A DNA stretch of 64,000 bases, taken from NCBI RefSeq assembly GCF_003790525.1, contig NZ_CP033635.1; one strand, given 5' to 3'. Positions 12,515-47,250 of this stretch are shown piece after piece (the first letter of the stretch is position 1; each line of letters opens with the position of its first letter). Under the pieces are notes generated by a model. That model did no database searches. It was not told the DNA's origin and saw only the letters and a list, made by a program, of their open reading frames with translations. Made by a program: the position numbers and the translations under genes. This stretch comes from Escherichia coli (GTDB lineage Bacteria > Pseudomonadota > Gammaproteobacteria > Enterobacterales > Enterobacteriaceae).

Positions 12515-12529
12515 TTACCTTAAAGGTAT
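12515..12529. promoter_or_regulatory. TTACC-N5-GGTAA palindromic operator-like site (TTACC TTAAA GGTAT), upstream of int
   Basis: Core palindrome TACCTTAAAGGTA; one of ~14 related sites in the prophage. Confidence 0.45.
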
Positions 12530-12571
12530 ACTCTCATACCGTCATGAAAATGGTTTCTATACGGGTGAATT

Positions 12572-13822
12572 GTGCTTACCGATACAAAATTAAAGAACCT
12601 CAAGCCACAGGACAAACTGTACAAAGTTTCCGATCGTGACGGGCTGTATGTAGCTGTGCTTACGTCAGGTACGGTCTCGTTTCGCTATGACTACCGTATC
12701 AACGGTCGCCGCGAAACACTGGTAATCGGGCAGTATGGGCGTGACGGTATCAGCCTGGCAGAAGCGCGAGAAGAACTGATTGCTGCAAAGAAGCTGCTTA
12801 AAGCAGGCCAGTCGCCGGCTGCGGCTAAACGTGACGGTATCAAAAAGATTCGTGGTGCCGAGACGTTTGCGGTACATACCGACAGTTATATGAAACACGT
12901 CATCCTGGCTGAAAGTACCCGCGCAATGAAGCAGGCAGTGATCGACCGTGACATACTTCCTGTTCTTGGCAACAAAATGATGACTGAAATTACCACATCG
13001 ATGGTTCGTGATTTGTGTGACCGGATTGTCGAACGCGGTGGTCGGGCAACAGCAGTACAGGCCAGGGAGATCATTAGCAGCGTATACCGTCACGCCAATG
13101 ACCGTGGTCATGGTTTGTTTAATCCTGCGGCTGACATTAAACCTTCGTCTATCGCCATATTTAAACCACGAGAGCGAACACTGACACCAGAAGAAATTGG
13201 TCTGTTCTTCCGCACGCTGGATGCCATTGGTGCTATGGGCACTATGAAAATGGCTTTAAAGCTGGTGCTTATCACTATGGTTCGTAAAGGCGAATTCACC
13301 AATGCAACGTGGGACGAAATAGATTTTAAAAAATGGACATGGACAATTCCTTCAGACCGCATGAAGGGAAGCCGGGCGCACGTTATTTACCTGCCAAAAC
13401 AGGCACAGGATATATTGGTTGGGTTGCAGATGTGCGCTGGTGGAAGTGAATATCTGGTTCCTGGTCGTTACAATTTCCGGAAGCCATTATCTAATGCCGC
13501 ACTGAACTCTCTGATCGACAGAACGGTGAAAATAATAAATGAAGATGGTGAGCATATTCAGGGCTTCACCGTACACGATATGCGCCGTACAGCCAGTACG
13601 TTGTTGCATGAGGCTGGTTATCCTTCAGACTGGATTGAAAAGGCTCTGGCACATGAGCAGAAAGGTGTGCGCGCCGTATATAACAAAGCGGAATACGCCA
13701 GACAGCGCGCCTACATGTTGCAGCAGTGGGCCGATATGATTGATTCCTGGATTAACGGGGAGCATACGGATCTAATTCCGTTCTCCCCGTCGAAGTTTGA
13801 GAAGTGGATGGCGGGGGAATAA
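12572..13822 (+). CDS. int: tyrosine-type phage integrase (P4-like family)
   Basis: GTG start; N-terminus MLTDTKLKNLKPQDKLYKVSDRDGLYVAV and C-terminal catalytic region VHDMRRTASTLLHEAGY...AHEQKGVRAVY typical of tyrosine recombinases; adjacent to attL. Confidence 0.9.
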   Translation: MLTDTKLKNLKPQDKLYKVSDRDGLYVAVLTSGTVSFRYDYRINGRRETLVIGQYGRDGISLAEAREELIAAKKLLKAGQSPAAAKRDGIKKIRGAETFAVHTDSYMKHVILAESTRAMKQAVIDRDILPVLGNKMMTEITTSMVRDLCDRIVERGGRATAVQAREIISSVYRHANDRGHGLFNPAADIKPSSIAIFKPRERTLTPEEIGLFFRTLDAIGAMGTMKMALKLVLITMVRKGEFTNATWDEIDFKKWTWTIPSDRMKGSRAHVIYLPKQAQDILVGLQMCAGGSEYLVPGRYNFRKPLSNAALNSLIDRTVKIINEDGEHIQGFTVHDMRRTASTLLHEAGYPSDWIEKALAHEQKGVRAVYNKAEYARQRAYMLQQWADMIDSWINGEHTDLIPFSPSKFEKWMAGE

Positions 13823-13825
13823 CGT

Positions 13826-14020
13826 TTAATAGTTCTGCTGATTTTCTTCCATCTCTGCTTCTGCTGCCAGTGATTCAATTTTGTTTTCGAATATTGCTGA
13901 CAGTGTTGCAAATTCAGCATCAGTGACAGCGGGAATTGGAACAAACCTGATCCCGCTGTGTGCAAGCATGTTTGCAGTTTCAAGGCATTTTCTTAAATCT
14001 GCTGGTGATGCCCTGTTCAT
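13826..14020 (-). CDS. small hypothetical protein (64 aa), translationally coupled to the methyltransferase (ATGA overlap)
   Basis: ATG at 14020 overlaps the MTase TGA stop; translation MNRASPADLRKCLETANMLAHSGIRF... Confidence 0.35.
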   Translation of the reverse strand: MNRASPADLRKCLETANMLAHSGIRFVPIPAVTDAEFATLSAIFENKIESLAAEAEMEENQQNY

Positions 14021-14679
14021 GCAGCACGCTCCCGCCCCTGGTTGTCTGTTGGTGACAGCGGAGAATTGCTGAATGCATTTGTTAATCCGCCAATATCCAA
14101 CGCGTATCCAGGGTGTAGTTGCACTGCCGAGTTTTCGCACTGATTACCCCAAACATCGAAGCCATGAGACGACTGGCGGGCGAACAGTTCAATGCGAGAA
14201 ACATCGCCTAACAATTGCACAAGTTTTTCACGAACGACATCTGGTTTTCTTGAGTGCTCAAGCCGCGGTGCGGTAAATGACTGAACGATCCCTGCATTAA
14301 TGCGCGGAGGTAGTTTTCCCTTTACCGCAAACAGGCAATCTTCACTATTGGCGCGGGTCATGTGTCCCATACCCATAACCAGTTTATCTGGTTGTCGACT
14401 ACCACATTTTATCCACGTGAAGCCCTTCATGGTCATAAGACGAAATCCCCAGGCTTCAACAACTTTTAGTGCTTCGAGTGGTTGTGTTGGCACCCACCAC
14501 ATGGCCAACAGACAGTTTTCAGCGGCCAAATCCCACACAGGAAGGCGGCAGATATCCAGCACACTCATAACTGGATATTTAAAACCGGCACCGCGATTAC
14601 CATCTGCGGCTTTGTCCCGGTATACCCAGGGTGGATCTGCATAGATTAGTGTGTATTTCTTAGTCATAAACCACCCCAC
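14017..14679 (-). CDS. DNA N6-adenine methyltransferase, MT-A70 family (orphan, no cognate nuclease seen)
   Basis: DPPW catalytic motif in LIYADPPWVYRD near N-terminus; 220 aa. Confidence 0.8.
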   Translation of the reverse strand: MGWFMTKKYTLIYADPPWVYRDKAADGNRGAGFKYPVMSVLDICRLPVWDLAAENCLLAMWWVPTQPLEALKVVEAWGFRLMTMKGFTWIKCGSRQPDKLVMGMGHMTRANSEDCLFAVKGKLPPRINAGIVQSFTAPRLEHSRKPDVVREKLVQLLGDVSRIELFARQSSHGFDVWGNQCENSAVQLHPGYALDIGGLTNAFSNSPLSPTDNQGRERAA

Positions 14680-14959
14680 AACATCCTATGCCGCCATAGT
14701 CGCCACGGCGAAGGCCGTTACCTTTTGTGATACATTGGTCCCTGCGAACCGCGATCCTTGCACGCTCAACATCACCAGAAGCAACATCCATACACTGAAG
14801 CCAAAGGTGAGCGGCAATGCGGAACTGCCCTTTTTTCTCTCTTTCAATCGCGCGTTTTTCGATCTCTATCGCCGCAGGAGTAACGGCGACAATCTTTGAC
14901 GGACTGCGCATTGAAACCTTGTTCATGTGATATTTTTCAAGTCGGCTTAACTTTCTCAC
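14660..14959 (-). CDS. hypothetical protein overlapping MTase start (true start uncertain)
   Basis: ORF in operon context between alpA-like gene and MTase; no recognisable motif. Confidence 0.3.
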   Translation of the reverse strand: MRKLSRLEKYHMNKVSMRSPSKIVAVTPAAIEIEKRAIEREKKGQFRIAAHLWLQCMDVASGDVERARIAVRRDQCITKGNGLRRGDYGGIGCCGVVYD

Positions 14960-15068
14960 TTAATCCAACCCTCTCTGAAAATTAATGCCAGCAGATAAAG
15001 CCATGCTGAAACAGAGGCCAGGAATAAGTACCATCCTGACCATTTGCTCCAGTGCCTTAGCAGCACAC

Positions 15069-15317
15069 TCATGCAGCGTTGCTCACAGGACGATATACAC
15101 GTTGCTGAACAGGAGGCTTTTTACCCTGGAACTCTGCCGGGCTTGCTGCCTGACGTTCATCAAGCCAACGCTCAACTTCATCACGGTTCCATGCGCAGCG
15201 TTTATCGGTGATATACCAGCGTTTAGGAAATTCCCCTGCGCGCTCCATACGGTCGATAGTGCTCCATGACAGTGGCACCACCGCCAGGAGTTCCTTCTTA
15301 CCTAATGCACCTTTCAT
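15069..15317 (-). CDS. AlpA/excisionase-like small DNA-binding protein
   Basis: 82 aa; LLAVVPLSWSTIDRMERAGEFPKRWYITDKRCAWNRDEVERWL resembles AlpA/Xis-type HTH proteins. Confidence 0.65.
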   Translation of the reverse strand: MKGALGKKELLAVVPLSWSTIDRMERAGEFPKRWYITDKRCAWNRDEVERWLDERQAASPAEFQGKKPPVQQRVYRPVSNAA

Positions 15318-15366
15318 AAATACCTCTCTTGGTTGCAGTGCGGCGCGCGTGGCGCCGCGGTGGTGG

Positions 15367-16248
15367 TTACATAGATGTTTCGTTTAATTCTTCCCGACGA
15401 ACGCTGTAAACGTCGGTGGCTTTTGCCAGCAGTTCGTCATCATCTGAAAGTTTTTGTGCAATGTATTTGTAAGCCTTATCCAGTTCGGAGACAGTGCTGT
15501 AATTCATCGCTGCGCTGGTAAAGGCCATCAGCATTTCTTCTGGCTCACGGCTATCCGCTTTACGCGTTTGCTCATCAGGCTTTTTCACTGATTTAGCGTT
15601 GATCAGACTGTTCATTCCCGCAGCCGTAGTCATTTGCGGAGTAATGTCTCGCTCAACGCGCGGTGCCGTTTCCTGTAATTCGTCAGGGGTGTAAACACCG
15701 AGAAGTACATCAGGAGCGTGCAGGCGAGCCCATCGTTTCGTGCAAAGATATGCAAGTTGCTGGCGCGGATCCTGTTCCCACAATGGAGAGTTACGCACTC
15801 CTGCTTGCGCCATACTGATGGTAAGCTCACGTGGTTCTGCTTCTCCTTTAAGAACTGCTGACACAGTTACCGTCAGATTCGGTGATTTATCTGTTTTGCC
15901 GTTAACATTCGACCAGTCACCGCTCCAGCGATAATTCAGGCGTGTCGCCAGCAGGCTGGAAGAGGATACGACCGCGTTTACCAACTGTGCTTCGTAGCCT
16001 AACGTTCCGTTTACCACATGCGTTTTCTGCGCCACGGCGAAAGGGTTCATTCCCCACTGTGCCGCCTGCATGGTCACCGCCAGGCAATCGGCAGGTTTGC
16101 CTTCAAGATGTTTCGGTACAGTCGCTTTGCTTTGTGACATCAACTCCGCGAAACGCACCAGTTGATTCATACCCTCGGGGCTGAAGATTGCAGCAGCAGT
16201 GCCTACAGTTGCGCCTGGTTGTGATGTGATTGCGATATCATTGCTCAT
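15367..16248 (-). CDS. RecT-family single-strand annealing recombinase
   Basis: 293 aa; position immediately downstream of and coupled (ATGA overlap) to the exonuclease gene; RecT-like sequence. Confidence 0.75.
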   Translation of the reverse strand: MSNDIAITSQPGATVGTAAAIFSPEGMNQLVRFAELMSQSKATVPKHLEGKPADCLAVTMQAAQWGMNPFAVAQKTHVVNGTLGYEAQLVNAVVSSSSLLATRLNYRWSGDWSNVNGKTDKSPNLTVTVSAVLKGEAEPRELTISMAQAGVRNSPLWEQDPRQQLAYLCTKRWARLHAPDVLLGVYTPDELQETAPRVERDITPQMTTAAGMNSLINAKSVKKPDEQTRKADSREPEEMLMAFTSAAMNYSTVSELDKAYKYIAQKLSDDDELLAKATDVYSVRREELNETSM

Positions 16249-17066
16249 ACGTACATATCCTGTTTACGTGCCCAGTCAGGGCGTTTAATAATTTCCACTC
16301 CGCCCCATTCATCGTTGATGCGGCATTCGTGATAGGTATTCAGATCCCGGCGGAACAGAGCGTGCCCGGCATCGACATCCTGCGCATCCAGCTCGAACAC
16401 GCGTACCGGATACCGACCACAATCAATGCTTTCGCTCACGGCAAGAAAGAAAAAACCATGCGGCTGACCAGTAACCATCATTGCGCCTTCGCGGTACATT
16501 GCGTCCTGCACGTGGTAGCGGAATTCCTCGATGTGGCGTGCAAAACGGTCCATATCTGCAACCTTTTTCACGTCGACGATCACGTTGTGCTCGTTCAGCC
16601 ATTTGTCTGGACGAATTCGGCACAACTCCCCCGTCTCTTCATCGTTCCAGTACATTGATGCTTCGCAGTAACCAGGTGCTTCCAGCATCCAGCGTGCCGC
16701 CGGGTGAGCCATTGCGCTATCACGCATCAGCTCCAGTTTCCGCCACTGCTCGGCATCAAGTACCGTAATCCCCATATCCGCCACATCACGAAGAAATTCC
16801 TCTTCGTCAGCTTTACCTTGTTTCGTCCGACGATCGAATTTCGGTGAAACAATGAAGCGTTTGTCGAACTCTCCAGGCTCCAGAAGCAGACAGTGCAATG
16901 CGGTTCCCATATCCAGTGCAGACTTTTTCTCTTCGTCTTCTGGTGCTGCCTGAACCCATTTAAGAAGCGCCGGATTCTTGGCAACCATGTCCAGTTGCGA
17001 CTTACTCACGCCGTCACCGGCGTGGTAGTCTTCGTTGCTGATGTCGAAATAAATTCCCGGTTTCAT
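16245..17066 (-). CDS. phage recombination exonuclease (RecE C-terminal / PD-(D/E)XK-like)
   Basis: 273 aa; MKPGIYFDISNEDYHAGDGVSKSQLD... N-terminus typical of this exonuclease family; partner of RecT. Confidence 0.7.
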   Translation of the reverse strand: MKPGIYFDISNEDYHAGDGVSKSQLDMVAKNPALLKWVQAAPEDEEKKSALDMGTALHCLLLEPGEFDKRFIVSPKFDRRTKQGKADEEEFLRDVADMGITVLDAEQWRKLELMRDSAMAHPAARWMLEAPGYCEASMYWNDEETGELCRIRPDKWLNEHNVIVDVKKVADMDRFARHIEEFRYHVQDAMYREGAMMVTGQPHGFFFLAVSESIDCGRYPVRVFELDAQDVDAGHALFRRDLNTYHECRINDEWGGVEIIKRPDWARKQDMYV

Positions 17067-17362
17067 GCCGCGTCCCTCTGCCCATCAAGCTGATCAGCCA
17101 GATCCCAGCGGGCGATAATTGCCATTGCCTCGCGCCGGTAGGCATCCATTAGTTCTTCGAACTCAGGGCTGTCTTTAGCGGCCTCCAGTACTTCCTGGCG
17201 AACGCCTTTAACTGTTACAACGTCGAAAGTTGATGCCAGTTGATGAAGCCGGATACTCTCAATCAGTTCAACTTGTCGGTCATATAGCTGTTCTGACAGA
17301 CGGTAGTCCTTGTCGAATGCCAGCATGATTTTTTGAAGATTTTTCTGCTGATTAACGTTCAT
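17063..17362 (-). CDS. hypothetical early protein (start MNVNQQ)
   Basis: ATGA overlaps with flanking genes; SD GGGAGGG upstream. Confidence 0.4.
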   Translation of the reverse strand: MNVNQQKNLQKIMLAFDKDYRLSEQLYDRQVELIESIRLHQLASTFDVVTVKGVRQEVLEAAKDSPEFEELMDAYRREAMAIIARWDLADQLDGQRDAA

Positions 17363-17364
17363 TA

Positions 17365-17517
17365 TCAGCCCTCCCATATCTCGTTATCGTTGGCCACATC
17401 GCGAGCTTCTTTGCTGACGAAAGCCCACTTAATGCCTTCCTGTAAGGTGCGGAACTTCCAGCTCATGAATCCGCATGCAGTAACGCAGTACCAACCGTTG
17501 ATGATTTTCCACTGCAT
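17365..17517 (-). CDS. small Cys-containing early protein (50 aa), first gene of leftward early operon
   Basis: ATG 17517 with SD GAGGTAA; MQWKIINGWYCVTACGFMSWKF...; not in ORF track (<60 aa). Confidence 0.3.
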   Translation of the reverse strand: MQWKIINGWYCVTACGFMSWKFRTLQEGIKWAFVSKEARDVANDNEIWEG

Positions 17518-17536
17518 AACTTGTTACCTCGGTCTG

Positions 17537-17551
17537 TTACCGTTGAGGTAA
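17537..17551. promoter_or_regulatory. TTACC-N5-GGTAA operator-like site (perfect), leftward early promoter region
   Basis: TTACC GTTGA GGTAA. Confidence 0.5.
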
Positions 17552-17598
17552 TAATTATGCGTATATGGTTTGATGTCAATAGATATGAGTTAAAAAAA

Positions 17599-17613
17599 TT
17601 ACCCGTTAGGTAA
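17599..17613. promoter_or_regulatory. TTACC-N5-GGTAA operator-like site (perfect), leftward early promoter region
   Basis: TTACC CGTTA GGTAA. Confidence 0.5.
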
Positions 17614-17622
17614 TCGAATAGG

Positions 17623-17650
17623 CAATAAAAAAGCCGCCATAAGGCGGCTT
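17623..17650 (-). terminator. rho-independent terminator after repressor gene
   Basis: aagccgcc ataa ggcggctt hairpin with T-run on minus strand. Confidence 0.55.
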
Positions 17651-17670
17651 ACTTACTGAAAAATATGGTT

Positions 17671-18255
17671 TTATTGTTTGTTTTTTTCGTTCTGGTTGAT
17701 GACAAATTCAATGTAACTTTCGATCTTTGCTTTCTCGGTTTCGGGTAACAATGCGTAGCGCGAGCGATCATAGTTGATGGTCGCAGGGTCATGCGGATGA
17801 ATCAGTAGTTCATATCCGTGACGCCCGAATGCAGATGCAACATTCTCCAGGGTGGAAATGGAAACGCTGACCTCATTGTTTAACAGGCGGCTTATTGTCA
17901 CCTGGGCGACGCCGGATGCGCGGTGAAGTTTTCCCTGAGTTGAAAGGTCGCGGCTTTCACTCATCCAGCGTTCCAGGTTGTGAGCCGCCAGCTGACCTAT
18001 ATCACTCGGGCCGACAGGCTGAAAACCCTCCTGAGAAAGCGAGCGATCAATATCAAGCCAGTTACGGGGTTTATTGGCGGCAGCTTCAATTTTTCGCGCA
18101 ACCTGGTCGCCGATAACCTTCTTGCCAAGAGCCCAGCGGTTTACCAGATTTGCCTGAGTTCCAAGTTTTTCTGCCATCCGCGTCTGAACACCATTGAATT
18201 CACGGTCGATCAAGTCGTTGAGATTTTGCCTGCGGACGTCCTGGATACTTTTCAT
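17671..18255 (-). CDS. putative immunity repressor with two HTH regions, no S24 peptidase domain
   Basis: 194 aa; HTH-like segments TRMAEKLGTQANLVNRWALG and ASGVAQVTISRLLNNEVSVSISTLENVASAF; divergent from cro-like gene across an operator cluster. Confidence 0.6.
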   Translation of the reverse strand: MKSIQDVRRQNLNDLIDREFNGVQTRMAEKLGTQANLVNRWALGKKVIGDQVARKIEAAANKPRNWLDIDRSLSQEGFQPVGPSDIGQLAAHNLERWMSESRDLSTQGKLHRASGVAQVTISRLLNNEVSVSISTLENVASAFGRHGYELLIHPHDPATINYDRSRYALLPETEKAKIESYIEFVINQNEKNKQ

Positions 18256-18310
18256 TTTCTGGAAAATCGCCTCATATATGAATCAGTAGATGATTCAATT
18301 TAAAGCAATA

Positions 18311-18325
18311 TTACCCAACAGGTAA
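18311..18325. promoter_or_regulatory. operator-like site 1 of 3 in repressor/cro intergenic region (perfect TTACC CAACA GGTAA)
   Basis: Palindrome in divergent promoter region. Confidence 0.55.
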
Positions 18326-18327
18326 AT

Positions 18328-18342
18328 GCACCTCATGGGTAA
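18328..18342. promoter_or_regulatory. operator-like site 2 of 3 (GCACC TCATG GGTAA, one degenerate half)
   Basis: Adjacent to site 1. Confidence 0.35.
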
Positions 18343-18358
18343 CTATCCTTGATTTTTG

Positions 18359-18373
18359 TTACCTTATGGGTGA
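18359..18373. promoter_or_regulatory. operator-like site 3 of 3 (TTACC TTATG GGTGA), overlaps putative rightward promoter
   Basis: Possible -35 TTGATT at 18349-18354 and -10-like GAATAT at 18372-18377. Confidence 0.4.
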
Positions 18374-18409
18374 ATATTTATTATCTGAAATAAATATCAG
18401 GCAATAGCT

Positions 18410-18640
18410 ATGAGCGATAACGGACATTTCGATTTCAAAAAGCACTGGCTTGCACTTACTCCGGATGAGCGTGAAGCCTTCGCACAGGAAGCCGGAACGA
18501 CGAGTCACTATATCCAGACTCACTTAACAGGTAAGCGCAAAATGCCAGGTAAAGTATTGATGAATGGGCTTTTTAAAGCCTGTAAAACAAGACAATGGCT
18601 GCGCTCAAAAGCAGAACTGGCATACTTCTTCTACTCATGA
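18410..18640 (+). CDS. Cro-like small regulatory protein
   Basis: 76 aa; divergent from repressor; MSDNGHFDFKKHWLALTPDEREAFAQEAGTTSHYIQTHLTGKRK. Confidence 0.5.
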   Translation: MSDNGHFDFKKHWLALTPDEREAFAQEAGTTSHYIQTHLTGKRKMPGKVLMNGLFKACKTRQWLRSKAELAYFFYS

Positions 18641-18695
18641 TATCCAGCTACAACCCTCTGTAGACCGCCACCCGGCGGTCTTTTCATATCTATTC

Positions 18696-18710
18696 GTACC
18701 TCAAAGGTAA
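18696..18710. promoter_or_regulatory. TTACC-N5-GGTAA-like site (GTACC TCAAA GGTAA)
   Basis: Between cro-like gene and next ORF. Confidence 0.35.
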
Positions 18711-18788
18711 TAAAAAACCAAATCTGGTTGATCAAATTTTCCAATTGTGCAAAATAGCCAATATCAATAACAAAAAGGTGCGGAAAAA

Positions 18789-19001
18789 TTGAAGATAGTA
18801 ACCAGAATGGAGGCCGCAAAAGCCGGGTTAAATCGCTATTTCACAGGAAAGCGGTGCCGTCACGGCCATCTCTCTGAAAGGTATGTTCTGAACGGAACAT
18901 GTGTTGAATGTGCAATGAATAGCGCCAACCGCCATCGTAATGAATTTGCTTGTGCACTAAAGAGTGCAAGAGGGGAAACCTATGGCAAGCAGCTGGATTA
19001 A
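18789..19001 (+). CDS. small Cys4 zinc-ribbon protein (hypothetical), alternative start
   Basis: CRHGH...CVEC pattern; start codon uncertain (TTG). Confidence 0.3.
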   Translation: MKIVTRMEAAKAGLNRYFTGKRCRHGHLSERYVLNGTCVECAMNSANRHRNEFACALKSARGETYGKQLD

Positions 19002-20560: not shown

Positions 20561-20597
20561 TACCAGCGCGATAGCGCATTTTTTTACGCCTTGATAA

Positions 20598-20612
20598 TTA
20601 CCTGTAGGGTAA
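20598..20612. promoter_or_regulatory. TTACC-N5-GGTAA operator-like site (perfect)
   Basis: TTACC TGTAG GGTAA. Confidence 0.5.
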
Positions 20613-20659
20613 CAAAATATTCTAAACTCTATTGATTTCGTGTCTTATGTGGTTTTTAA

Positions 20660-20674
20660 TTACCTCAGAGGTAA
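20660..20674. promoter_or_regulatory. TTACC-N5-GGTAA operator-like site (perfect), ends 4 nt before ATG 20678
   Basis: TTACC TCAGA GGTAA; GAGGT half doubles as SD. Confidence 0.5.
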
Positions 20675-20677
20675 ATC

Positions 20678-21022: not shown

Positions 21023-21083
21023 ATCGACGATCTTTTTAGTTATCAATGTAATCAATAAGTTATGTGGATAAGCGAGGGTAAAG

Positions 21084-21808: not shown

Positions 21809-21914
21809 GCAATATCGACAAGCGGCCTCTACGTGACAAGCTGTCACCGTATGACACAGAAGAGATGCTTGAGGCTATGCGTATTTTTCTGTAAGAACAG
21901 GGAGGTGAGCAAAA

Positions 21915-41979: not shown

Positions 41980-41984
41980 ATTAA

Positions 41985-44459
41985 ATGAGACAGGAATGTA
42001 TACAAGCGGTCCAGCAGGCGGCGCAGCGCACGTTAACGGCGCGAGAAATACAGAACATTGAAGACCGCATTTATCGAAATATGCGCTCCATTGCTCGTGA
42101 TGACCCGATGTCGTGGCGACAACTTTCCGAATCAGAACGGTTGTATCGTGCAGCACAATTGGCATCTGAAGAATTACAGCGAGAAGCGGCATTAAAGAAA
42201 CGTCGTGTGGCCCTCACTATAGCCGCACGTCAGAGATTGGATAAATTTATCAATAGCTATCAAGGGGCTGATGGGAAACTTGGCGCTCTTAACCGTACTA
42301 TTGCTTTTAATGCAGACGGTAAATCGAATTTCCTCTCTGTTGAATCCAGAACAAAAGCCACCCGTGATTATGCATTGAGTCAATTGCAGGAGGCATTCGA
42401 AGCAGTTGATCCTCGCTTTTTTGGTCTGTTTGAAGATGAAGCGGGCGTACGTGACCTGGTATATGAAATGCGGGGGCAAAATACTGGCAATGCTAAAGCA
42501 AGAAAAGGTGCTAAGGCGTGGAGAGAAGTTACAGAGCTGCTGCGCCGCCGGTTTAATGATGCTGGTGGGGACATTGGCTATCTCGAAAACTGGGGGATCC
42601 CTCAACATCATTCTATGGAAAAGGTTGGGGCGGTATCAAAGGATAAGTGGGTTAGCGATGTTATAGGTAAGCTGGATCGCAAATATTATACCCGAGCCGA
42701 TGGACAACTGATGAACGATGCCGAGTTGTCTGAATTTCTTGGAGAGGCTTATAACACGATCGCTACTGGTGGGCTGAATAAGCTTACTGATACCGGAATG
42801 CGAATTTCCGGCGCACGTGCTAACCGTGGTAATGCATCACGACAGATACATTTCAAAGATGCAGATTCCTATCTGCAATATCAGCAACTTTATGGCGATC
42901 GCTCTCTATGGGAAATCATGGTCGGTCACCTGGAAGGTATCAGTAAAGATATTGCGCTGGTGGAAACATATGGCCCAAACCCCGATCATGTTTTCCGCTC
43001 CCTTCTTGATCAGGTTAAGGCAGAAACGGCAACAGCTAACCCGAGTAAAACCGGTAGCGTCGAGCGTCTGGCGAACAAAACAGAGAACTTGTACAACTTT
43101 ATTTCCGGAAAAACACAGCCTGTAGCGAATCCGCACATCGCGCGATGGTCTGACAATATCCGCAACTGGCTGGTTGCCAGCAGACTCGGATCCGCGTTGC
43201 TGTCATCGTTCTCTGATCTTGGAACCATGTATCTGTCTGCGAAGGTTACCAACCTTCCAATGAACCAGTTATTTCGCAACCAGCTTGAAGCTATGGACCC
43301 AACGAACCGTACAGAACTTGCGCGGGCGCGCCGCGCTGGCCTGGCGATGGAATCTCTACTTGGCAGCGTTAACCGCTGGGCGATGGATAATATGGGGCCG
43401 TCTGTGTCTCGTTGGGCGGCAACGGCGGTAATGCGTGCCAGTGGGCTTACAGCATGGTCAGATGCGCACAAGCGCGCCTATGGCGTAACCATGATGGGAA
43501 GCCTGGGAGAAGTAGTGTCACGGACACCAGACCTTCGTAGCCTCGATGACTCTGATTTTCGTATCCTGAAAAGCAAAGGGATTACTGACACAGACTGGAG
43601 CGTATGGAAGCTGGCGCAACAGGAGGACTGGGGGAACGGTAATAATACGATGCTGACACCGGAAAGCATTATGCGTATCCCTGATTCAGCAGTTAAACAT
43701 CTTGGTGAGCCTGAACGCGTGAAATTTGAGGCAATGCGTAAACTGCTCGGTGCCGTAACTGAAGAAGTTGATATGGCTGTTATTACACCGGGCGCACGTG
43801 AACAGATGTTCGTAGGGTCTGGTCTTCAGCGTGGAACATGGAAAGGTGAATTAACGAGAAGTGTTTTCCTGTTTAAATCGTTCCCTATCTCGGTAGTTAT
43901 GCGTCACTGGCATAGAGCTATGGGGATGCCGTCTGCTGGTGGGCGTGCGGCATATATAGCAACGTTTTTAGCAAGCACAACCATGCTTGGTGCTCTTTCC
44001 ATGCAGATTACTGATCTTATTAATGGGAGAAATCCAAAAGAAATGACCGGTGACAACATGGTTAAATTCTGGATAAATGCATTTTTAAAAGGTGGTGGGG
44101 CAGGGTTGTATGGTGATTTTCTTTTCTCTGACCACACCAGGTACGGGAGCGGCGCACTAGCGTCGATGCTTGGCCCGGTAGCTGGTCTGGTTGATGACGT
44201 AGTGAAGATTGCTCAGGGCATACCGTTAAATGCTGTGGAAGGGAAGAATGAGCAGACTGGTGGTGATCTGGTTAAGCTTGGGAAAGGTTTGATGCCTGGT
44301 GCGAATCTCTGGTACTTGAAGGCGGCTCTCGATCACATGATCTTTAATCAGATGCAGGAGTATTTTTCACCAGGCTATTTGCGTAAAATGGAGCAACGTT
44401 CGAAGAAAGAGTTTAACCAGACATACTGGTGGCGACCTCAGGATGTCACTCCGCAATAA
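41985..44459 (+). CDS. large internal virion/ejection protein
   Basis: 824 aa, last gene of core structural block. Confidence 0.4.
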   Translation: MRQECIQAVQQAAQRTLTAREIQNIEDRIYRNMRSIARDDPMSWRQLSESERLYRAAQLASEELQREAALKKRRVALTIAARQRLDKFINSYQGADGKLGALNRTIAFNADGKSNFLSVESRTKATRDYALSQLQEAFEAVDPRFFGLFEDEAGVRDLVYEMRGQNTGNAKARKGAKAWREVTELLRRRFNDAGGDIGYLENWGIPQHHSMEKVGAVSKDKWVSDVIGKLDRKYYTRADGQLMNDAELSEFLGEAYNTIATGGLNKLTDTGMRISGARANRGNASRQIHFKDADSYLQYQQLYGDRSLWEIMVGHLEGISKDIALVETYGPNPDHVFRSLLDQVKAETATANPSKTGSVERLANKTENLYNFISGKTQPVANPHIARWSDNIRNWLVASRLGSALLSSFSDLGTMYLSAKVTNLPMNQLFRNQLEAMDPTNRTELARARRAGLAMESLLGSVNRWAMDNMGPSVSRWAATAVMRASGLTAWSDAHKRAYGVTMMGSLGEVVSRTPDLRSLDDSDFRILKSKGITDTDWSVWKLAQQEDWGNGNNTMLTPESIMRIPDSAVKHLGEPERVKFEAMRKLLGAVTEEVDMAVITPGAREQMFVGSGLQRGTWKGELTRSVFLFKSFPISVVMRHWHRAMGMPSAGGRAAYIATFLASTTMLGALSMQITDLINGRNPKEMTGDNMVKFWINAFLKGGGAGLYGDFLFSDHTRYGSGALASMLGPVAGLVDDVVKIAQGIPLNAVEGKNEQTGGDLVKLGKGLMPGANLWYLKAALDHMIFNQMQEYFSPGYLRKMEQRSKKEFNQTYWWRPQDVTPQ

Positions 44460-44468
44460 GGAACAACA

Positions 44469-44882
44469 ATGAAGGAATTATTGCTGTTATCGGTATTTTT
44501 GATATCCGCTTGCTCGACATCCTATGATGTTTATGACGGTGTTGATAAGGCATATTGCGACAAAGTTAAAATGGATTTTTCTCTTGCCAAGACGGCGAAG
44601 GATAGTTGTATTGATCACTACGTCAAGACTTATACCAAGCCAGCCTCATCGGCATCTGATATTGCTGAAGGTGCTGTGTTTGAGTGTAACAAGGTGATAT
44701 CCATCGCAGCGAGTTCTTCATACGATGCTGCTGTATGTGCAATGGCTGAAAGAAACGGCATGTCAGTGCAAAAAATTAATAGCATGATAAGCAGTAATGA
44801 CGAAGCCAAAATAAGAACTGATATCAGCTCGGTGAAAAAAGATGCCATGAACAGAGTTGTAAAATATCAGTCATCTTTATAA
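44469..44882 (+). CDS. lipoprotein (candidate superinfection-exclusion/cargo)
   Basis: Signal peptide with lipobox LISAC; low GC; followed by terminator. Confidence 0.5.
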   Translation: MKELLLLSVFLISACSTSYDVYDGVDKAYCDKVKMDFSLAKTAKDSCIDHYVKTYTKPASSASDIAEGAVFECNKVISIAASSSYDAAVCAMAERNGMSVQKINSMISSNDEAKIRTDISSVKKDAMNRVVKYQSSL

Positions 44883-44885
44883 GTC

Positions 44886-44897
44886 GTGACATGTCAC
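44886..44897. promoter_or_regulatory. 12-bp perfect palindrome GTGACATGTCAC (copy 2)
   Basis: Identical to 24761-24772; followed by hairpin aggccgc tttc gcggcct plus T-run. Confidence 0.4.
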
Positions 44898-44920
44898 AGG
44901 CCGCTTTCGCGGCCTTGTTT

Positions 44921-45082
44921 TTAACGAATGCCACCGCCACCCGGGCGGGAATCCGCAGAACGCCCACCGCAGCGGGAGCCGTCAGCAGCAGTGTCGCTGT
45001 CGTGCTGACAACGACCGGCAAAGGCCTGAGTTGAAGCTACCAGAGACAACAAAACGAACAGTGCAGCAAATGCTTTTTTCAT
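44921..45082 (-). CDS. small secreted Gly/Arg-rich peptide with two Cys (53 aa precursor)
   Basis: MKKAFAALFVLLSLVASTQAFA signal peptide then GRCQHDSDTAADGSRCGGRSADSRPGGGGIR. Confidence 0.3.
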   Translation of the reverse strand: MKKAFAALFVLLSLVASTQAFAGRCQHDSDTAADGSRCGGRSADSRPGGGGIR

Positions 45083-45152
45083 TGTGAAATTTCCATCTAT
45101 AAGCCACCTCAATGTGGCGTCAATGAGTGTAGCACTGACTTTTGTTTCGCCC

Positions 45153-45175
45153 ACAAAAAAGCCCGCAGCGCGGGC
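45153..45175 (-). terminator. rho-independent terminator after two-gene cassette
   Basis: gcccgc agcg cgggc hairpin with T-run on minus strand. Confidence 0.5.
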
Positions 45176-45615
45176 TATTCTTCTTCATCATTAAAAAGCG
45201 GATTGTTGTTTCCATCTGATGAAAGGAAAGGTATGTGTTCTCTTGAAAATCCAACAATGACAATTTCATTATCATTTTTTGCATAATGAATGCATTCATT
45301 AGAATGCCTTCCGCCAGGGTTGAAATTTAAGTTAATGGTATAATTCTTAAATGTGTTTGGATACCATGTTGGCCCACAATGATAATGCCAATAATTCTCT
45401 TGCTCATAATTGTCTGAGCCGGGAATTTTATCATGGTTATCATCAACCCACGAGGGCTTGTTTTTTCCAACAAGCGCCCTTCCATTGGCAACATCCTCTA
45501 AAAAACTTTGTATGATTTTTATTTCATCATCAGTAAGGAAAGGTCCGTCTACAGCGAAAGGGGTGTTGCTTTCCCCATGTAGAAAACTATTAGATATTCT
45601 AATGTTAAACTTCAA
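45175..45615 (-). CDS. hypothetical ~147-aa protein, downstream gene of two-gene cassette (candidate toxin/effector)
   Basis: TTG start with SD AGGAG 6 nt upstream (an in-frame ATG at 45756 has no SD and overlaps the upstream gene); contains WHYHCGP and GGRHSNECIH segments; low GC. Confidence 0.4.
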   Translation of the reverse strand: MKFNIRISNSFLHGESNTPFAVDGPFLTDDEIKIIQSFLEDVANGRALVGKNKPSWVDDNHDKIPGSDNYEQENYWHYHCGPTWYPNTFKNYTINLNFNPGGRHSNECIHYAKNDNEIVIVGFSREHIPFLSSDGNNNPLFNDEEE

Positions 45616-45635
45616 GGAAAACTCCTGATGTGCTT

Positions 45636-45803
45636 CTATTTGGAGCGAAATGCCGCCTTGAAGTCGCTGAAAGATGTTCCTGTCTGGTAAACCATATCCT
45701 TGTCGCGCTCTTTGCTTGCGCGGCCAAGCATAACTTTTCCAATGACATCCCAGCATTGCTTGGCTTGTTCATTGTGCTGAGTACGATTTTTCAACGCTGT
45801 CAT
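45636..45803 (-). CDS. hypothetical 55-aa protein, upstream gene of two-gene cassette (candidate antitoxin/regulator)
   Basis: ATG with SD AGGAGG; MTALKNRTQHNEQAKQCWDVIGKVMLGRASKERDKDMVYQTGTSFSDFKAAFRSK; not in ORF track (<60 aa). Confidence 0.4.
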   Translation of the reverse strand: MTALKNRTQHNEQAKQCWDVIGKVMLGRASKERDKDMVYQTGTSFSDFKAAFRSK

Positions 45804-45815
45804 ATCGCGCCTCCT

Positions 45816-45830
45816 TTACCTTTAAGGTAA
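45816..45830. promoter_or_regulatory. TTACC-N5-GGTAA operator-like site (perfect) upstream of two-gene cassette
   Basis: TTACC TTTAA GGTAA. Confidence 0.5.
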
Positions 45831-45902
45831 TAGTACGCTATTCACCCACAGTCTGCAATCTGTACAGAATTATTTAAAGGCACATCCCTGTGCCGCCGCC
45901 CG

Positions 45903-46592
45903 TCAGAAGAACCCAGCCTTGTCGTTGATGTACTCCGCGTGGGTCTGGATATCACGCAGGCATTTGCTCACACCAACAATGTAGCAGAACATGGTGGTCA
46001 GCTCCGCCGCCGCGCCCGATACGTCGTGCCCGTCTTCCTGTAACTGGTTCAGCAGATTCATCAGCAGTGAGTTCTCCGTCAGGCCGAGAACACCAGACGG
46101 AGAATGAATCAGGCTGCGGTAGCCGGGCTTCAGTGGGGCACTGTAGGTTTTGTTCTCTATCTTCATTGCCTGCATCACTGCTGATGCTGTGGCGTTGGCT
46201 ACCTGGTCGGCAACTATCTTTATGCGTTCTTCCTGCGGGAGCGAGTTTTTAATGTAACTTCCGGTGCGGCGGATCTGAGGAAGAACCTCACCTGTAACCC
46301 ATTTACGAAAGCGGTAGGGGATAGTGCCTGGTGTCACTGCGTCGCGGCAGCGGAGGATCAGTGTGTAGAGGCCTGACTCGTTGATAATATTGGTTTCACC
46401 TTGACGGCCTAAGTTAAATTTAGCCCTTTCATCATCATCAAGAGATTTTATTGACATAGTGGGGTTTGTCAGTTGAAGAGCTTTAATAACGTCTTTGGCA
46501 ACAAACCAAGGATTTCCATCAATAACAATGGCTCGAATGGTGGCTTCTGATTCAAAATGAAAAACAGATGGGGTTACGTTAGCAGTCATAGT
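45903..46592 (-). CDS. Bro-N domain protein (antirepressor-like)
   Basis: Start MTANVTPSVFHFESEATIRAIVIDGNPWFVAKDVIKALQL typical of Bro-N/KilA-N-type N-terminus; SD AAAGGTGAT. Confidence 0.55.
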   Translation of the reverse strand, partial: TMTANVTPSVFHFESEATIRAIVIDGNPWFVAKDVIKALQLTNPTMSIKSLDDDERAKFNLGRQGETNIINESGLYTLILRCRDAVTPGTIPYRFRKWVTGEVLPQIRRTGSYIKNSLPQEERIKIVADQVANATASAVMQAMKIENKTYSAPLKPGYRSLIHSPSGVLGLTENSLLMNLLNQLQEDGHDVSGAAAELTTMFCYIVGVSKCLRDIQTHAEYINDKAGFF

Positions 46593-46855
46593 GATCACCT
46601 TTGTAGTTAGGTTAATCACCACTACCGACGCCAATCGGTTGGTGGTGAACTGTGCAGGGTTGGCGTAACCGGCTACAAAGGACCCGGCGCACCTTTCGGT
46701 GCCCCCACACAGCCCACCATAGAATAGGTGCGCTTTACACATAAAAAAACCGCTTATGCGGCATATGTGCCTCTGTAGTAACCCGGGACGCCAATCCCGG
46801 CACTGGATTTTGCCAGTGCCCGATTACTATGGCACAAGAGGAGTGCGATGTAAAT

Positions 46856-46870
46856 TTACCGAAAAGGTAA
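46856..46870. promoter_or_regulatory. TTACC-N5-GGTAA operator-like site (perfect)
   Basis: TTACC GAAAA GGTAA. Confidence 0.5.
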
Positions 46871-46901
46871 TAATAAACACTCTACTTGGTAATTGCAAAC
46901 C

Positions 46902-47159
46902 TTATCTGGTTTGTTTTCGTAATTGTTCGGCACAATAGTCGAGATGTGTTTGCAGATCCCGCATAGACATCTGTGAGCTGGTGACGTAGTTAATCAGTGC
47001 AGTCAGTTCGGCAAGTGGGCCATCGACATTAAATCCATCCTTATCGAGATCCCGGAGTAATTTCATCAAGTGCGATCCCTCCACCAGTGACCTGACGCCT
47101 CCCGGCGTGTGAATCCTTTCGGTAAATCCGTCTTCCAGTGGATAGTGATACTGCTGCAT
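46902..47159 (-). CDS. small protein homologous to the C-terminal domain of the adjacent Bro-N protein
   Basis: IHTPGGVRSLVEGSHLMKLLRDLDKDGFNVDGPLAELT aligns with IHSPSGVLGLTENSLLMNLLNQLQEDGHDVSGAAAELT of 45903-46592. Confidence 0.45.
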   Translation of the reverse strand: MQQYHYPLEDGFTERIHTPGGVRSLVEGSHLMKLLRDLDKDGFNVDGPLAELTALINYVTSSQMSMRDLQTHLDYCAEQLRKQTR

Positions 47160-47235
47160 CTTATCTTCTCCATGCAATAACTGTATATTTATACAGTATC
47201 AAATAATTTGTTTGCTATCCAGCACGTTTTGCAAA

Positions 47236-47250
47236 TTACCCGAAAGGTAA
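47236..47250. promoter_or_regulatory. TTACC-N5-GGTAA operator-like site (perfect) in divergent region upstream of tailspike
   Basis: TTACC CGAAA GGTAA. Confidence 0.5.

What the first reader, a model, noticed from the sequence alone, without database searches (positions are those of the whole stretch)
12515..47250. Palindromic TTACC-N5-GGTAA motif recurs about 14 times in prophage intergenic regions
Sites at 12515, 17537, 17599, 18311, 18328, 18359, 18696, 20598, 20660, 24851, 27770, 28387, 45816, 46856 and 47236; ten are perfect TTACC-N5-GGTAA. All are intergenic. Three cluster between the divergent repressor and cro-like genes, and two sit ahead of the leftward early operon, which fits a repressor/Cro operator. 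The rest lie ahead of nearly every other transcription unit (int, replication-region gene, terminase, portal operon, the antisense membrane gene, the two-gene cassette, Bro-N, tailspike). A fixed 10-position palindrome is expected about 0.04 times in 40 kb by chance. Multi-site control of this kind recalls the stoperator arrangement of mycobacteriophage L5. In several sites the GGTAA half also serves as the Shine-Dalgarno sequence, so an RNA-level hairpin role is also possible.
Basis: seen in the sequence. Interest (0 to 1): 0.7.

Follow-up and report, generated by a model that had tools for sequence, protein, structure and literature searches.

The report
Repressor operators of an epsilon15-like prophage
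The repeated TTACC-N5-GGTAA palindrome is real and is almost certainly the binding site of this prophage's master repressor (a homologue of the Salmonella phage SPC32H/epsilon15 Rep protein); it sits at nearly every phage promoter, an arrangement already annotated in the public epsilon15 genome record, so it is a sound but not a new finding.

Summary
There are 10 perfect TTACC-N5-GGTAA sites (expected 0.00), all inside a 39.6-kb prophage (12365-51964) in the 3' end of guaA. None occur in 124 kb of host DNA from the same strain.

The prophage is a Uetakevirus, about 97-98% identical to phiV10 and vB_EcoP_ZX5. The same palindrome is the top-ranked one in 7 related phage genomes and 4 further prophage loci. 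Its positions relative to orthologous gene starts are conserved to the base pair.

The epsilon15 RefSeq record already labels seven of these sites as 'repressor' binding sites. The window's 17671-18255 protein is a homologue of SPC32H Rep (PDB 5D50). 46902-47159 encodes its antirepressor Ant, with a LexA box.

Most sites overlap a predicted -10/+1 region. Others lie exactly 62 bp upstream of a proximal site. Spacings are quantised at 17/18, 30/31 and 62 bp, which fits cooperative or looping binding by a tetrameric Rep.

The site differs from L5 stoperators: it is symmetric and sits at promoters. An RNA-hairpin role is unlikely.

By-products: a second phased palindrome (AACCATATATGGTT) with no known binding protein, and isrK and C4 RNAs.

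The parts
12365..51964 (.). Uetakevirus (phiV10/ZX5/epsilon15-like) prophage in the 3' end of guaA, bounded by the 17-bp att core ATTGAGTGGGAATGATT (12365-12381 and 51948-51964)
   Evidence: The att core is as reported for ZX5 in PMC9782041.
17671..18255 (-). rep: master repressor, 194 aa. It has an N-terminal HTH, a middle dimerisation domain and a C-terminal tetramerisation/Ant-binding domain, by homology.
   Evidence: PDB 5D50_A (SPC32H Rep), E=4e-42 over residues 1-190. It is 100% identical to the ZX5 ORF21 repressor. Overexpression of ORF21 abolished free phage and cut holin/endolysin mRNA by more than 99.9% (PMC9782041).
18410..18640 (+). cro-like gene (76 aa), first gene of the rightward early transcript
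   Evidence: phrog_35 'transcriptional repressor', E=5.6e-13. No Pfam match.
46902..47159 (-). ant: small antirepressor that would release Rep from DNA
   Evidence: PDB 5D50_E (SPC32H Ant), E=1.4e-46.
47181..47196 (.). LexA box CTGTATATTTATACAG just upstream of ant
   Evidence: Conserved in all 8 aligned genomes.
12515..12529 (.). Operator-like site upstream of int (TTACCTTAAAGGTAT), centre 50 bp before the int start. It carries the same GGTAT deviation in every relative and overlaps a site that the epsilon15 record calls an integrase-binding site.
17537..17551 (.). OL-proximal operator. It begins inside the -10 (AATTAT|TACC) of leftward PL (TTGACA-N17-AATTAT, 17579-17551) and is centred at about +1.
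17599..17613 (.). OL-distal operator, 62 bp from the proximal one (about -62), just downstream of the rep terminator
18311..18325 (.). OR site nearest rep (perfect), 63 bp upstream of the rep start
18328..18342 (.). Middle OR site (GCACCTCATGGGTAA, 2 mismatches), 17 bp from the previous one. It is perfect in epsilon15, SPC32H and BUCT711.
18359..18373. OR site in the spacer of rightward PR (TTGTTA/TTGATT ... TATTAT, 18356-18384). It has 1 mismatch in the window and in the seven complete phage genomes aligned.
18696..18710 (.). Site after the cro terminator (GTACC..GGTAA), about 60 bp upstream of a predicted promoter (TTGATC-N16-CAAAAT) for the replication genes
20598..20612 (.). Distal operator (about -62) of the promoter of the DUF1064 gene block (TTGATT-N17-TTTAAT)
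20660..20674 (.). Proximal operator of the same promoter (TTTAAT|TACC), centred at about +1 and 62 bp from the distal one. Its right half plus spacer carries the GAGG ribosome-binding site.
24851..24865 (.). Operator at the terS (packaging) promoter. It directly follows an extended -10 (TGGTACTAT|TACC) after a terminator.
24869..24883 (.). Second, degenerate site 18 bp downstream (TTACCACGGTGGTTA), abutting the terS start codon.
27770..27784 (.). Site overlapping the spacer/-10 (GGTATAAT) of a leftward promoter for a window-specific cargo gene (26947-27741, unknown function)
28387..28401 (.). Upstream operator of the gp6/portal (head) operon
45816..45830 (.). Operator at +1 of a leftward promoter (TTGCAG-N17-TACTAT|TACC) for a window-specific two-gene cassette (45636-45803 and 45175-45756, unknown function)
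46856..46870 (.). Operator between ant and the isrK / C4 RNA / Bro-N antirepressor unit. It abuts a leftward -10 (TATTAT|TACC) and lies just upstream of a second promoter (TTTACA-N17-CATAGT).
47236..47250 (.). Operator in the divergent ant / tailspike control region, 84 bp from the ant start and 112 bp from the tailspike start
17557..17570 (.). Copy of the second palindrome (consensus AACCATATATGGTT) in the PL spacer. Binding factor unknown.
18716..18729 (.). Second palindrome (AACCAAATCTGGTT), overlapping the -35 of the post-cro promoter
28429..28442 (.). Second palindrome upstream of gp6/portal
46898..46911 (.). Second palindrome at the 3' end of ant, overlapping the -35 (TTGCAA) of the leftward promoter
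47277..47290 (.). Second palindrome upstream of the tailspike gene
49968..49981 (.). Second palindrome in the spacer of the predicted lysis-cassette promoter (GTAACA-N17-TATTAT). In this prophage no Rep operator accompanies it.

Best explanation
What it is. The palindrome (A)TTACC-NNWNN-GGTAA(T) is the operator of the prophage's master repressor Rep (17671-18255). Rep is a homologue of the tetrameric Rep of Salmonella phage SPC32H and of the epsilon15 repressor.

How it works in the lysogen. Rep occupies about 16 sites and silences each lytic transcription unit directly. The units are PL, PR, the replication block, the DUF1064 block, terS, the head operon, the tailspike, the second antirepressor unit, int and two cargo cassettes. 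There is no reliance on a cascade.

Geometry. About half of the sites overlap the predicted -10/+1 region, where bound Rep would exclude RNA polymerase. The others lie upstream, typically exactly 62 bp (six helical turns) from a proximal site, or 17-18 and 30-31 bp from a neighbour. One Rep tetramer has two DNA-binding units, so it can bind two sites cooperatively and loop or clamp the promoter.

Induction. DNA damage removes LexA from the box upstream of ant. Ant then binds Rep and strips it from all sites at once.

Shown here: the motif, its restriction to the prophage, its positional conservation, its geometry and the homologies.

Inferred: which protein binds, the promoter assignments, looping, and the sign of regulation at upstream-only sites.
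For: - Motif statistics and host control.
- The same motif is the top palindrome, with 8-11 perfect copies, in 7 Uetakevirus genomes. It gives 6-7 copies per 16-20 kb in 4 further prophage loci whose Rep is 54-65% identical.
- Site centres keep fixed distances to orthologous start codons across genomes: terS -28/-10, gp6 -98, ant -84 to -87, tailspike -112 to -114, int -50, DUF1064 -73/-11, and PL gene +27/+89 in the phiV10-type genomes.
- Half-sites are invariant while the 5-nt spacer varies, apart from a central A/T. This is the signature of a dimeric HTH protein, not of a hairpin.
- The epsilon15 RefSeq record annotates seven such sites as protein_bind 'repressor / lysogeny'.
- Homology: Rep to PDB 5D50_A at E=4e-42, and Ant to 5D50_E at E=1.4e-46.
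- Literature: SPC32H Rep binds palindromic DNA as a tetramer, with DNA-binding pairs drawn from different dimers (PMC9638917). Two pairs of its middle dimerisation domains sit about 100 A apart, and the tetramerisation fold is DNA-loop-type (PMC9986798).
- The identical ZX5 repressor blocks phage production and lysis-gene transcription (PMC9782041).
- The recognition-helix core NL(V/I)(N/S)RW is conserved in nearly all Rep variants read, matching the invariant operator.
- Operator spacings are quantised: 17 bp in 12/12 genomes, 18 bp (11 cases), 30/31 bp (12 cases) and 62 bp (20 cases).
- -10 hexamers repeatedly end in the AT of ATTACC, at PL, P-DUF1064, terS, the 45803 cassette and the isrK unit.
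- A LexA box lies upstream of ant.
Against: - No binding data for this phage were available.
- The primary epsilon15 and SPC32H papers are not in the held library. I could not check which sites have been footprinted.
- The motif does not vary across the Rep family. A protein-site covariation test was therefore impossible, and a conserved Cro-like protein could equally track it.
- Promoter assignments are consensus matches only. The scans found no more promoter-like sites than shuffles did.
- At upstream-only sites (gp6, tailspike, post-cro) simple occlusion does not apply. Rep could there act by looping to weak half-sites, or even as an activator.
- The lysis cassette of this prophage lacks the operator that five relatives have.
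Confidence: 0.85

Rival explanations
1. The dispersed sites are used mainly by the Cro-like protein (18410-18640), either alone or sharing operators with Rep as in lambda. On this reading their main role is temporal shut-down or ordering of transcription during lytic growth, not maintenance of lysogeny.
For: - Three sites lie between the divergent rep and cro genes, the classic shared-operator layout.
- The Cro-like protein matches a phage 'transcriptional repressor' family and is conserved in all relatives.
- Nothing computed here separates the two proteins, because the motif is invariant.
Against: - The only experimentally characterised DNA binder of this family is Rep, which binds palindromic sites (PMC9638917).
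- The epsilon15 record assigns the sites to the repressor.
- A separate palindrome (AACCATATATGGTT) accompanies the operators and is an equally good candidate for the Cro-like protein.
Confidence: 0.12
2. The sites act like mycobacteriophage stoperators. Repressor bound inside transcription units blocks elongating RNA polymerase rather than initiation.
For: - There are many sites across the genome, and several lie just after a terminator or between genes.
- The second terS site (+19) and the sites next to start codons could hinder elongation.
Against: - Stoperators are asymmetric 13-mers bound by a monomer, and they work in one orientation only (PMC9283540).
- Here the site is a perfect palindrome and the homologous repressor is a tetramer.
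- Every site has a promoter-like element next to it, usually with the -10 fused to the site.
Confidence: 0.05
3. The palindrome works at the RNA level, as a small hairpin that masks the ribosome-binding site or stabilises the 5' end.
For: - In three or four sites the right half or the spacer contains the Shine-Dalgarno sequence (20660, 24869, 27770, 45816).
- The 22-mers fold with -2.6 to -7.2 kcal/mol.
Against: - Distal sites at -60 to -80 are not transcribed from the adjacent promoter.
- Proximal sites straddle the predicted +1, so only half would be in the RNA.
- Stem bases never show compensatory changes. Imperfect sites (TCACC, GGTGA, GGTAT, GTACC, ATACC) are uncompensated.
- Identical stem sequence at about 160 sites in 12 genomes points to sequence readout, not structure.
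Confidence: 0.03

Closest known systems
Rep/Ant lysis-lysogeny switch of Salmonella phage SPC32H and the repressor sites annotated in Salmonella phage epsilon15 (genus Uetakevirus)
   Same: - Homologous Rep and Ant.
- LexA box upstream of ant.
- The identical palindrome ATTACC-N5-GGTAAT at the same positions.
- Seven of these sites are annotated 'repressor' in NC_004775.2, including those before terS, the head operon and the tail fibre gene.
   Different: - Rep is only about 42% identical overall.
- This phage has two OL sites instead of three.
- Its middle OR site is degenerate.
- It lacks the lysis-cassette site.
- It has extra sites in front of its own cargo genes (27770, 45816) and before an isrK/C4/Bro-N unit that epsilon15 and SPC32H lack.
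Mycobacteriophage L5 / cluster A repressor with operators and stoperators
   Same: One repressor has more than a dozen sites spread over the whole genome, silencing far more than the early promoters (PMC9283540).
   Different: - L5 sites are asymmetric 13-mers, orientation-dependent and bound by a monomer with two DNA-binding domains.
- Many L5 sites block elongation.
- Here the sites are palindromic, bound (by homology) by a tetramer, and fused to promoters.
Lambda-type CI/Cro switch with tripartite OR/OL and long-range CI looping
   Same: - Divergent repressor and cro genes with three operators between them.
- A second operator cluster at PL.
- Probable cooperative binding and looping between operators.
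   Different: - Rep has no S24 self-cleavage domain; only HTH families are recorded. By homology it is inactivated by an antirepressor.
- The operator network extends to the late, lysis-related, integration and cargo promoters.
- The loops would be very short (62 bp).
Phage P1 C1 repressor with many dispersed operators, and the phiC31 repressor with conserved inverted repeats in intergenic regions
   Same: - A single immunity repressor controls many promoters scattered over the genome.
- In phiC31 the sites are highly conserved inverted repeats in intergenic regions.
- P1 also couples this to a C4 antisense RNA / antirepressor module like the one found here.
   Different: - P1 operators are asymmetric 17-mers.
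- The proteins are unrelated to Rep.
- The hosts and virion types differ.

Membership tests
Uetakevirus Rep operator network (epsilon15 / SPC32H type) | A Rep homologue (N-terminal HTH, middle dimerisation domain, C-terminal tetramerisation/Ant-binding domain) encoded next to the operator cluster | tested here: met
   17671-18255 matches PDB 5D50_A over residues 1-190, E=4e-42.
Uetakevirus Rep operator network (epsilon15 / SPC32H type) | A small antirepressor Ant under a LexA box | tested here: met
   46902-47159 matches 5D50_E, E=1.4e-46. The LexA box CTGTATATTTATACAG lies at 47181-47196 and is conserved in relatives.
Uetakevirus Rep operator network (epsilon15 / SPC32H type) | Palindromic operator ATTACC-N5-GGTAAT, identical to the sites annotated 'repressor' in epsilon15 | tested here: met
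Uetakevirus Rep operator network (epsilon15 / SPC32H type) | Sites at orthologous positions (PL, OR, post-cro, DUF1064/RuvC block, terS, head operon, ant/tailspike, int) | tested here: met
   Distances to orthologous start codons agree to within about 3 bp in 8 genomes and in 4 more loci.
Uetakevirus Rep operator network (epsilon15 / SPC32H type) | Direct binding of Rep to the sites and release by Ant | not testable with these tools
   This needs EMSA, footprinting or ChIP. The primary SPC32H papers are not held. Secondary accounts say Rep binds palindromic DNA as a tetramer.
Mycobacteriophage stoperators (L5, cluster A) | Asymmetric 13-bp site whose orientation follows the direction of transcription | tested here: not met
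   The site is a 15-17-bp perfect palindrome. Definition from PMC9283540.
Mycobacteriophage stoperators (L5, cluster A) | Monomeric repressor with two different DNA-binding domains | tested here: not met
   The repressor is homologous to SPC32H Rep, a dimer/tetramer. There is no similarity to the L5-type repressor.
Mycobacteriophage stoperators (L5, cluster A) | Sites inside transcription units that stop elongation | tested here: inconclusive
   Every site has a promoter-like element beside it, but no transcription start sites are known.
Lambda-type CI repressor | C-terminal S24 (LexA-like) self-cleavage domain triggered by RecA | tested here: not met
   Only HTH families are recorded for the Rep cluster. 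The C-terminal half aligns with the SPC32H dimerisation and tetramerisation domains.
Lambda-type CI repressor | Three operators between divergent repressor and cro genes, and an operator cluster at PL | tested here: met
   18311, 18328 and 18359 at OR; 17537 and 17599 at PL.

The most novel reading that the evidence does not exclude
Three linked claims go beyond the known Rep operator.

(1) Each promoter region may carry a two-factor code. It would consist of the Rep operator plus a second, undescribed palindrome A(A/T)CCATATATGG(T/A)T (core ACC-N6-GGT, against ACC-N5-GGT for Rep). This palindrome sits at quantised distances of 19, 40-43 or 52 bp from an operator. Depending on the promoter, it lies in the spacer, over the -35, or at about -40. 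It could therefore be the target of a still unidentified phage regulator, perhaps the Cro-like or the gp55-like protein. Such a regulator could switch early promoters off and late ones on.

(2) The Rep operator is invariant across the whole Rep family, including E. coli, Salmonella, Enterobacter, Klebsiella and Serratia phages. Immunity specificity in this group would then reside in Rep-Ant pairing rather than in operator recognition.

(3) Repression would rely on fixed 62-bp micro-loops formed by single Rep tetramers.
Probability: 0.3. Interest if true: 0.55.

Novelty: already known. Interest (0 to 1): 0.3.

Why it matters
The finding explains how a very common E. coli prophage keeps its lytic units silent. 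The immunity region is present in 540 of 5,426 complete E. coli genomes. One repressor sits directly at nearly every lytic promoter, and one antirepressor, controlled by the SOS response, can release all of them together.

For annotation, the motif is a reliable marker of promoters and true start codons in Uetakevirus genomes. For example, it argues against the long terS start used in the phiV10 record.

The arrangement itself is already recorded for epsilon15. The scientific gain is therefore limited to three details:
- the quantised 17/18, 30/31 and 62-bp geometry;
- the operators in front of newly acquired cargo genes;
- the second palindrome, which would be worth testing.

Tried and rejected
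- Covariation test. I looked for Rep homologues with altered recognition helices (QPNLINRW, EPNLVSRW, NANLISRW) and read their loci. The motif was unchanged in all of them, so the test cannot assign the binding protein.
- Primary literature. The epsilon15 genome paper and both SPC32H papers are not held. A text search for the half-site strings returned only primer noise. The ZX5 paper does not describe operators.
- RNA-hairpin reading. Rejected on geometry and the absence of compensatory changes.
- DnaA-box, CRP-site or alternative-sigma readings of the recurrent ATGTGGTT string. I considered these by eye and dropped them. The string turned out to be half of a 14-bp palindrome.
- Pfam gave nothing for the Cro-like and gp55-like proteins.
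- PHROGs, NCBIfam and PADLOC gave no function for the cargo genes next to sites 27770 and 45816; only coiled-coil noise was returned.
- Promoter scans are not enriched over shuffles. Promoter calls therefore rest on conservation across phages, not on the scan.

Full report
**Observation**

An exact search finds ten perfect TTACC-N5-GGTAA sites in the 64-kb window, where dinucleotide shuffles give none. With one mismatch allowed there are 17 sites against 1.08 expected.

All perfect sites lie between 17537 and 47250. This is inside a prophage delimited by two copies of the 17-bp core ATTGAGTGGGAATGATT at 12365 and 51948, at the 3' end of guaA. The same core and integration site were reported for phage vB_EcoP_ZX5 (PMC9782041).

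I enumerated every 5-mer palindrome with a 0-12 nt spacer. This motif ranks first in the prophage and nothing comparable appears in the flanks.

As a host control I used 124.4 kb of host DNA: the window flanks plus two 50-kb stretches of E. coli 702/18, whose chromosome matches the window at 100%.
- Host DNA has no perfect site and 12 one-mismatch sites.
- The 39.6-kb prophage has 10 perfect and 5 one-mismatch sites.
- The imperfect sites are therefore not supported by count. Four of the five are supported by conservation (below); 27770 is window-specific and rests on its promoter context.

**What the element is**

The region is 97-98% identical to Escherichia phages phiV10, TL-2011b and vB_EcoP_ZX5, and more distantly related to Salmonella phage epsilon15. 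These are temperate podoviruses of the genus Uetakevirus.

The same palindrome is the most frequent one, with 8-11 perfect copies, in each of the following:
- phiV10, epsilon15, SPC32H and ZX5;
- Enterobacter phages Tyrion and BUCT554;
- Klebsiella phage BUCT711.

It is also the most frequent palindrome in four further prophage loci from E. coli, a metagenome and Serratia, whose repressors are only 54-65% identical.

The site centres keep the same distance to orthologous start codons in all genomes:

| Gene | Distance of site centre(s) from start codon |
|---|---|
| terS | 28 and 10 bp upstream |
| head-operon gene gp6 | 98 bp upstream |
| ant | 84-87 bp upstream |
| tailspike | 112-114 bp upstream |
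| int | 50 bp upstream |
| DUF1064 (or RuvC) gene | 73 and 11 bp upstream |
| first PL gene | 27 and 89 bp upstream (phiV10-type genomes) |

In addition, three sites lie between rep and cro, and one lies after the cro terminator.

Pooled over 75 perfect sites, the half-sites are invariant. The spacer is free except for a central A/T (96%), and there is a preference for A/T just outside, giving (A)TTACC-NNWNN-GGTAA(T).

**Who binds it**

The epsilon15 RefSeq record NC_004775.2 carries seven protein_bind features labelled 'repressor / lysogeny'. Read out, they are exactly this motif. They lie before terS, before the head operon, before the tail fibre gene, three at PL and one before the RuvC gene. 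The dispersed repressor sites are thus already publicly annotated for the type phage of the genus.

Protein evidence in the window:
- The protein from 17671-18255 aligns over its whole length with the SPC32H repressor Rep (PDB 5D50 chain A, E=4e-42).
- The small leftward gene 46902-47159 encodes a close homologue of the SPC32H antirepressor Ant (5D50 chain E, E=1.4e-46).
- A perfect LexA box (CTGTATATTTATACAG, 47181-47196) lies just upstream of ant and is conserved in all relatives.

Literature evidence:
- Secondary accounts state that SPC32H Rep binds palindromic DNA as a tetramer, in which each DNA-binding pair is formed by domains from different dimers, and that Ant disassembles it (PMC9638917).
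- Two pairs of Rep's middle dimerisation domains lie about 100 A apart, and its tetramerisation domain has a fold associated with DNA looping (PMC9986798).
- The ZX5 repressor is 100% identical to the window protein. When overexpressed it abolished free phage and lowered holin and endolysin mRNA by more than 99.9% (PMC9782041).
- The core of the predicted recognition helix, NL(V/I)(N/S)RW, is conserved in nearly all Rep variants read. This agrees with an invariant operator.

**Architecture and likely mechanism**

PL and the DUF1064-block promoter have the same layout, as alignments across the phages show:
- a terminator;
- a distal operator;
- 19 bp;
- a -35 (TTGACA or TTGATT);
- a 17-bp spacer;
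- a -10 whose last two bases are the AT of ATTACC.

The proximal operator is therefore centred at about +1 and the distal one at about -62.

The same fusion of -10 and operator recurs at several other places:
- terS, with an extended -10 (TGGTACTAT|TACC);
- the window-specific cassette at 45803 (TACTAT|TACC);
- the unit downstream of ant (TATTAT|TACC).

At PR the site 18359 fills the spacer. At 27770 the site overlaps a TATAAT.

Distances between neighbouring sites are quantised across 12 genomes:
- 17 bp in every genome (the two rep-proximal OR sites);
- 18 bp (11 cases);
- 30/31 bp (12 cases);
- 62 bp (20 cases).

I infer the following.
- Rep excludes RNA polymerase at the proximal sites.
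- One tetramer bridges two sites, adjacent or 62 bp apart (six helical turns, same face).
- This gives cooperative, tight repression.
- SOS-induced Ant releases Rep everywhere at once.

At the upstream-only sites (head operon, tailspike, post-cro) a weak proximal half-site GGTAAT next to the -10 may serve as the second contact. The sign of regulation there is not established.

The repressor-operator reading is right. The stoperator analogy is loose.
- L5 stoperators are asymmetric 13-mers, work in one orientation and are bound by a monomer (PMC9283540).
- The present sites are symmetric, sit at promoters, and the homologous repressor is a tetramer.

An RNA role is unlikely, for three reasons.
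- Distal sites would not be transcribed from the adjacent promoter.
- Proximal sites straddle the predicted start.
- The imperfect sites (TCACC, GGTGA, GGTAT, GTACC, ATACC) are never compensated on the other arm.

**Limits**

- I could not read the primary epsilon15 and SPC32H papers.
- I could not use covariation to discriminate Rep from the conserved Cro-like protein, because the motif never changes.
- The promoter assignments are consensus matches supported by cross-phage conservation only.

**By-products**

A second palindrome:
- A(A/T)CCATATATGG(T/A)T occurs 5-9 times per genome against 1-2 in shuffles.
- Of 69 hits in 395 kb, 43 lie within 60 bp of an operator centre, at offsets of 19, 40-43 or 52 bp.
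- Its window copies are at PL, the post-cro promoter, gp6, the 3' end of ant, the tailspike and the lysis cassette.
- Depending on the promoter it falls in the spacer, over the -35, or at about -40.
- Its binding factor is unknown.

Other observations:
- Between the operator at 46856 and the Bro-N antirepressor gene, Rfam finds isrK and a C4 antisense RNA. This makes a P1 immI-like or Gifsy-like second antirepressor module.
- This prophage and ZX5 lack the lysis-cassette operator that five relatives have.
- The window has extra operators in front of cargo genes of unknown function.

**Verdict**

It belongs to a system that is already annotated (epsilon15) and structurally studied (SPC32H). Interest is modest. 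The phased second palindrome and the invariance of the operator across the family are the parts worth a follow-up.

Noticed in passing
window 17557-17570, 18716-18729, 28429-28442, 46898-46911, 47277-47290, 49968-49981 (and a degenerate copy near 20641-20654): A second palindrome, A(A/T)CCATATATGG(T/A)T, accompanies the Rep operators at quantised offsets (19, 40-43, 52 bp). In 12 related genomes, 43 of 69 hits lie within 60 bp of an operator. It falls in the spacer, over the -35, or at about -40 of the predicted promoters. No binding protein is known, and it is not annotated in the epsilon15 record.
   Followed up: partly
window 46743-46819 (-) and 46638-46724 (-): Rfam finds isrK (74.7 bits) and C4 antisense RNA (79.5 bits) in tandem. 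They lie between the operator at 46856 and the Bro-N/KilAC-type antirepressor gene 45903-46589 (-). The prophage therefore carries a second, RNA-controlled antirepressor module in addition to the SPC32H-type Ant.
   Followed up: partly
window 47181-47196: A perfect LexA box, CTGTATATTTATACAG, lies immediately upstream of ant and is conserved in all eight aligned genomes.
   Followed up: yes
window 24761-24772 and 44886-44897: The 12-bp palindrome GTGACATGTCAC occurs twice (expected 0.09), each time just before a terminator. One copy is at the end of the gene upstream of terS, where the phiV10 record is cut. The other follows the lipoprotein gene 44469-44882 downstream of the tail gene block. 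Related genomes have 2-4 copies. Function unknown.
   Followed up: no
window 49900-50030, compared with L001 24692, L002 24704, L003 24782, L005 26408, L007 21929: Five relatives have a Rep operator 104 bp upstream of the first lysis-cassette gene. This prophage and ZX5 lack it, because the region between the tailspike and lysis genes has been replaced. They keep the second palindrome and a promoter-like GTAACA-N17-TATTAT.
   Followed up: partly
window 26947-27741 (-), 45636-45803 (-), 45175-45756 (-), 44469-44882 (+), about 44921-45084 (-): These are cargo genes absent from phiV10 (the two-gene cassette's promoter geometry resembles that before ZX5 gene 630-956). They comprise a 264-aa coiled-coil protein (phrog_4780), a two-gene cassette (phrog_8607 and phrog_5954), a lipoprotein (phrog_8691) and a small secreted peptide. 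None has a known function or a defence-system match. The first two units have a Rep operator on their promoter, so they would be silent in the lysogen.
   Followed up: partly
window about 28410, compared with phiV10/ZX5 upstream of gp6: An 11-bp deletion (GTTAAATGTCA) lies between the head-operon operator and its promoter. It shortens the distance from the operator to the second palindrome from 52 to 41 bp, about one helical turn.
   Followed up: no
window 24805-24886: The mechanical ORF, and the phiV10 annotation of terS, start upstream of the two operators. The start conserved in epsilon15, ZX5 and Tyrion is the ATG at 24886. The longer start is probably an annotation error.
   Followed up: partly
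window 18385-18400: A palindrome CTGAAATAAATATCAG (CTGA-N8-TCAG, LexA-box-like but not canonical) lies in the cro leader. It is conserved in the phiV10-type phages and absent from the epsilon15 type.
   Followed up: no
window 17500-18760: The PL-rep-OR-cro immunity region is present at 95% identity or more in 540 of 5,426 complete E. coli genomes. The window matches E. coli strain 702/18 (NZ_CP074701.1) at 100%.
   Followed up: yes
window 27988-28064 (-): A tRNA-Arg (anticodon TCT) is carried by the prophage, as in SPC32H.
   Followed up: no
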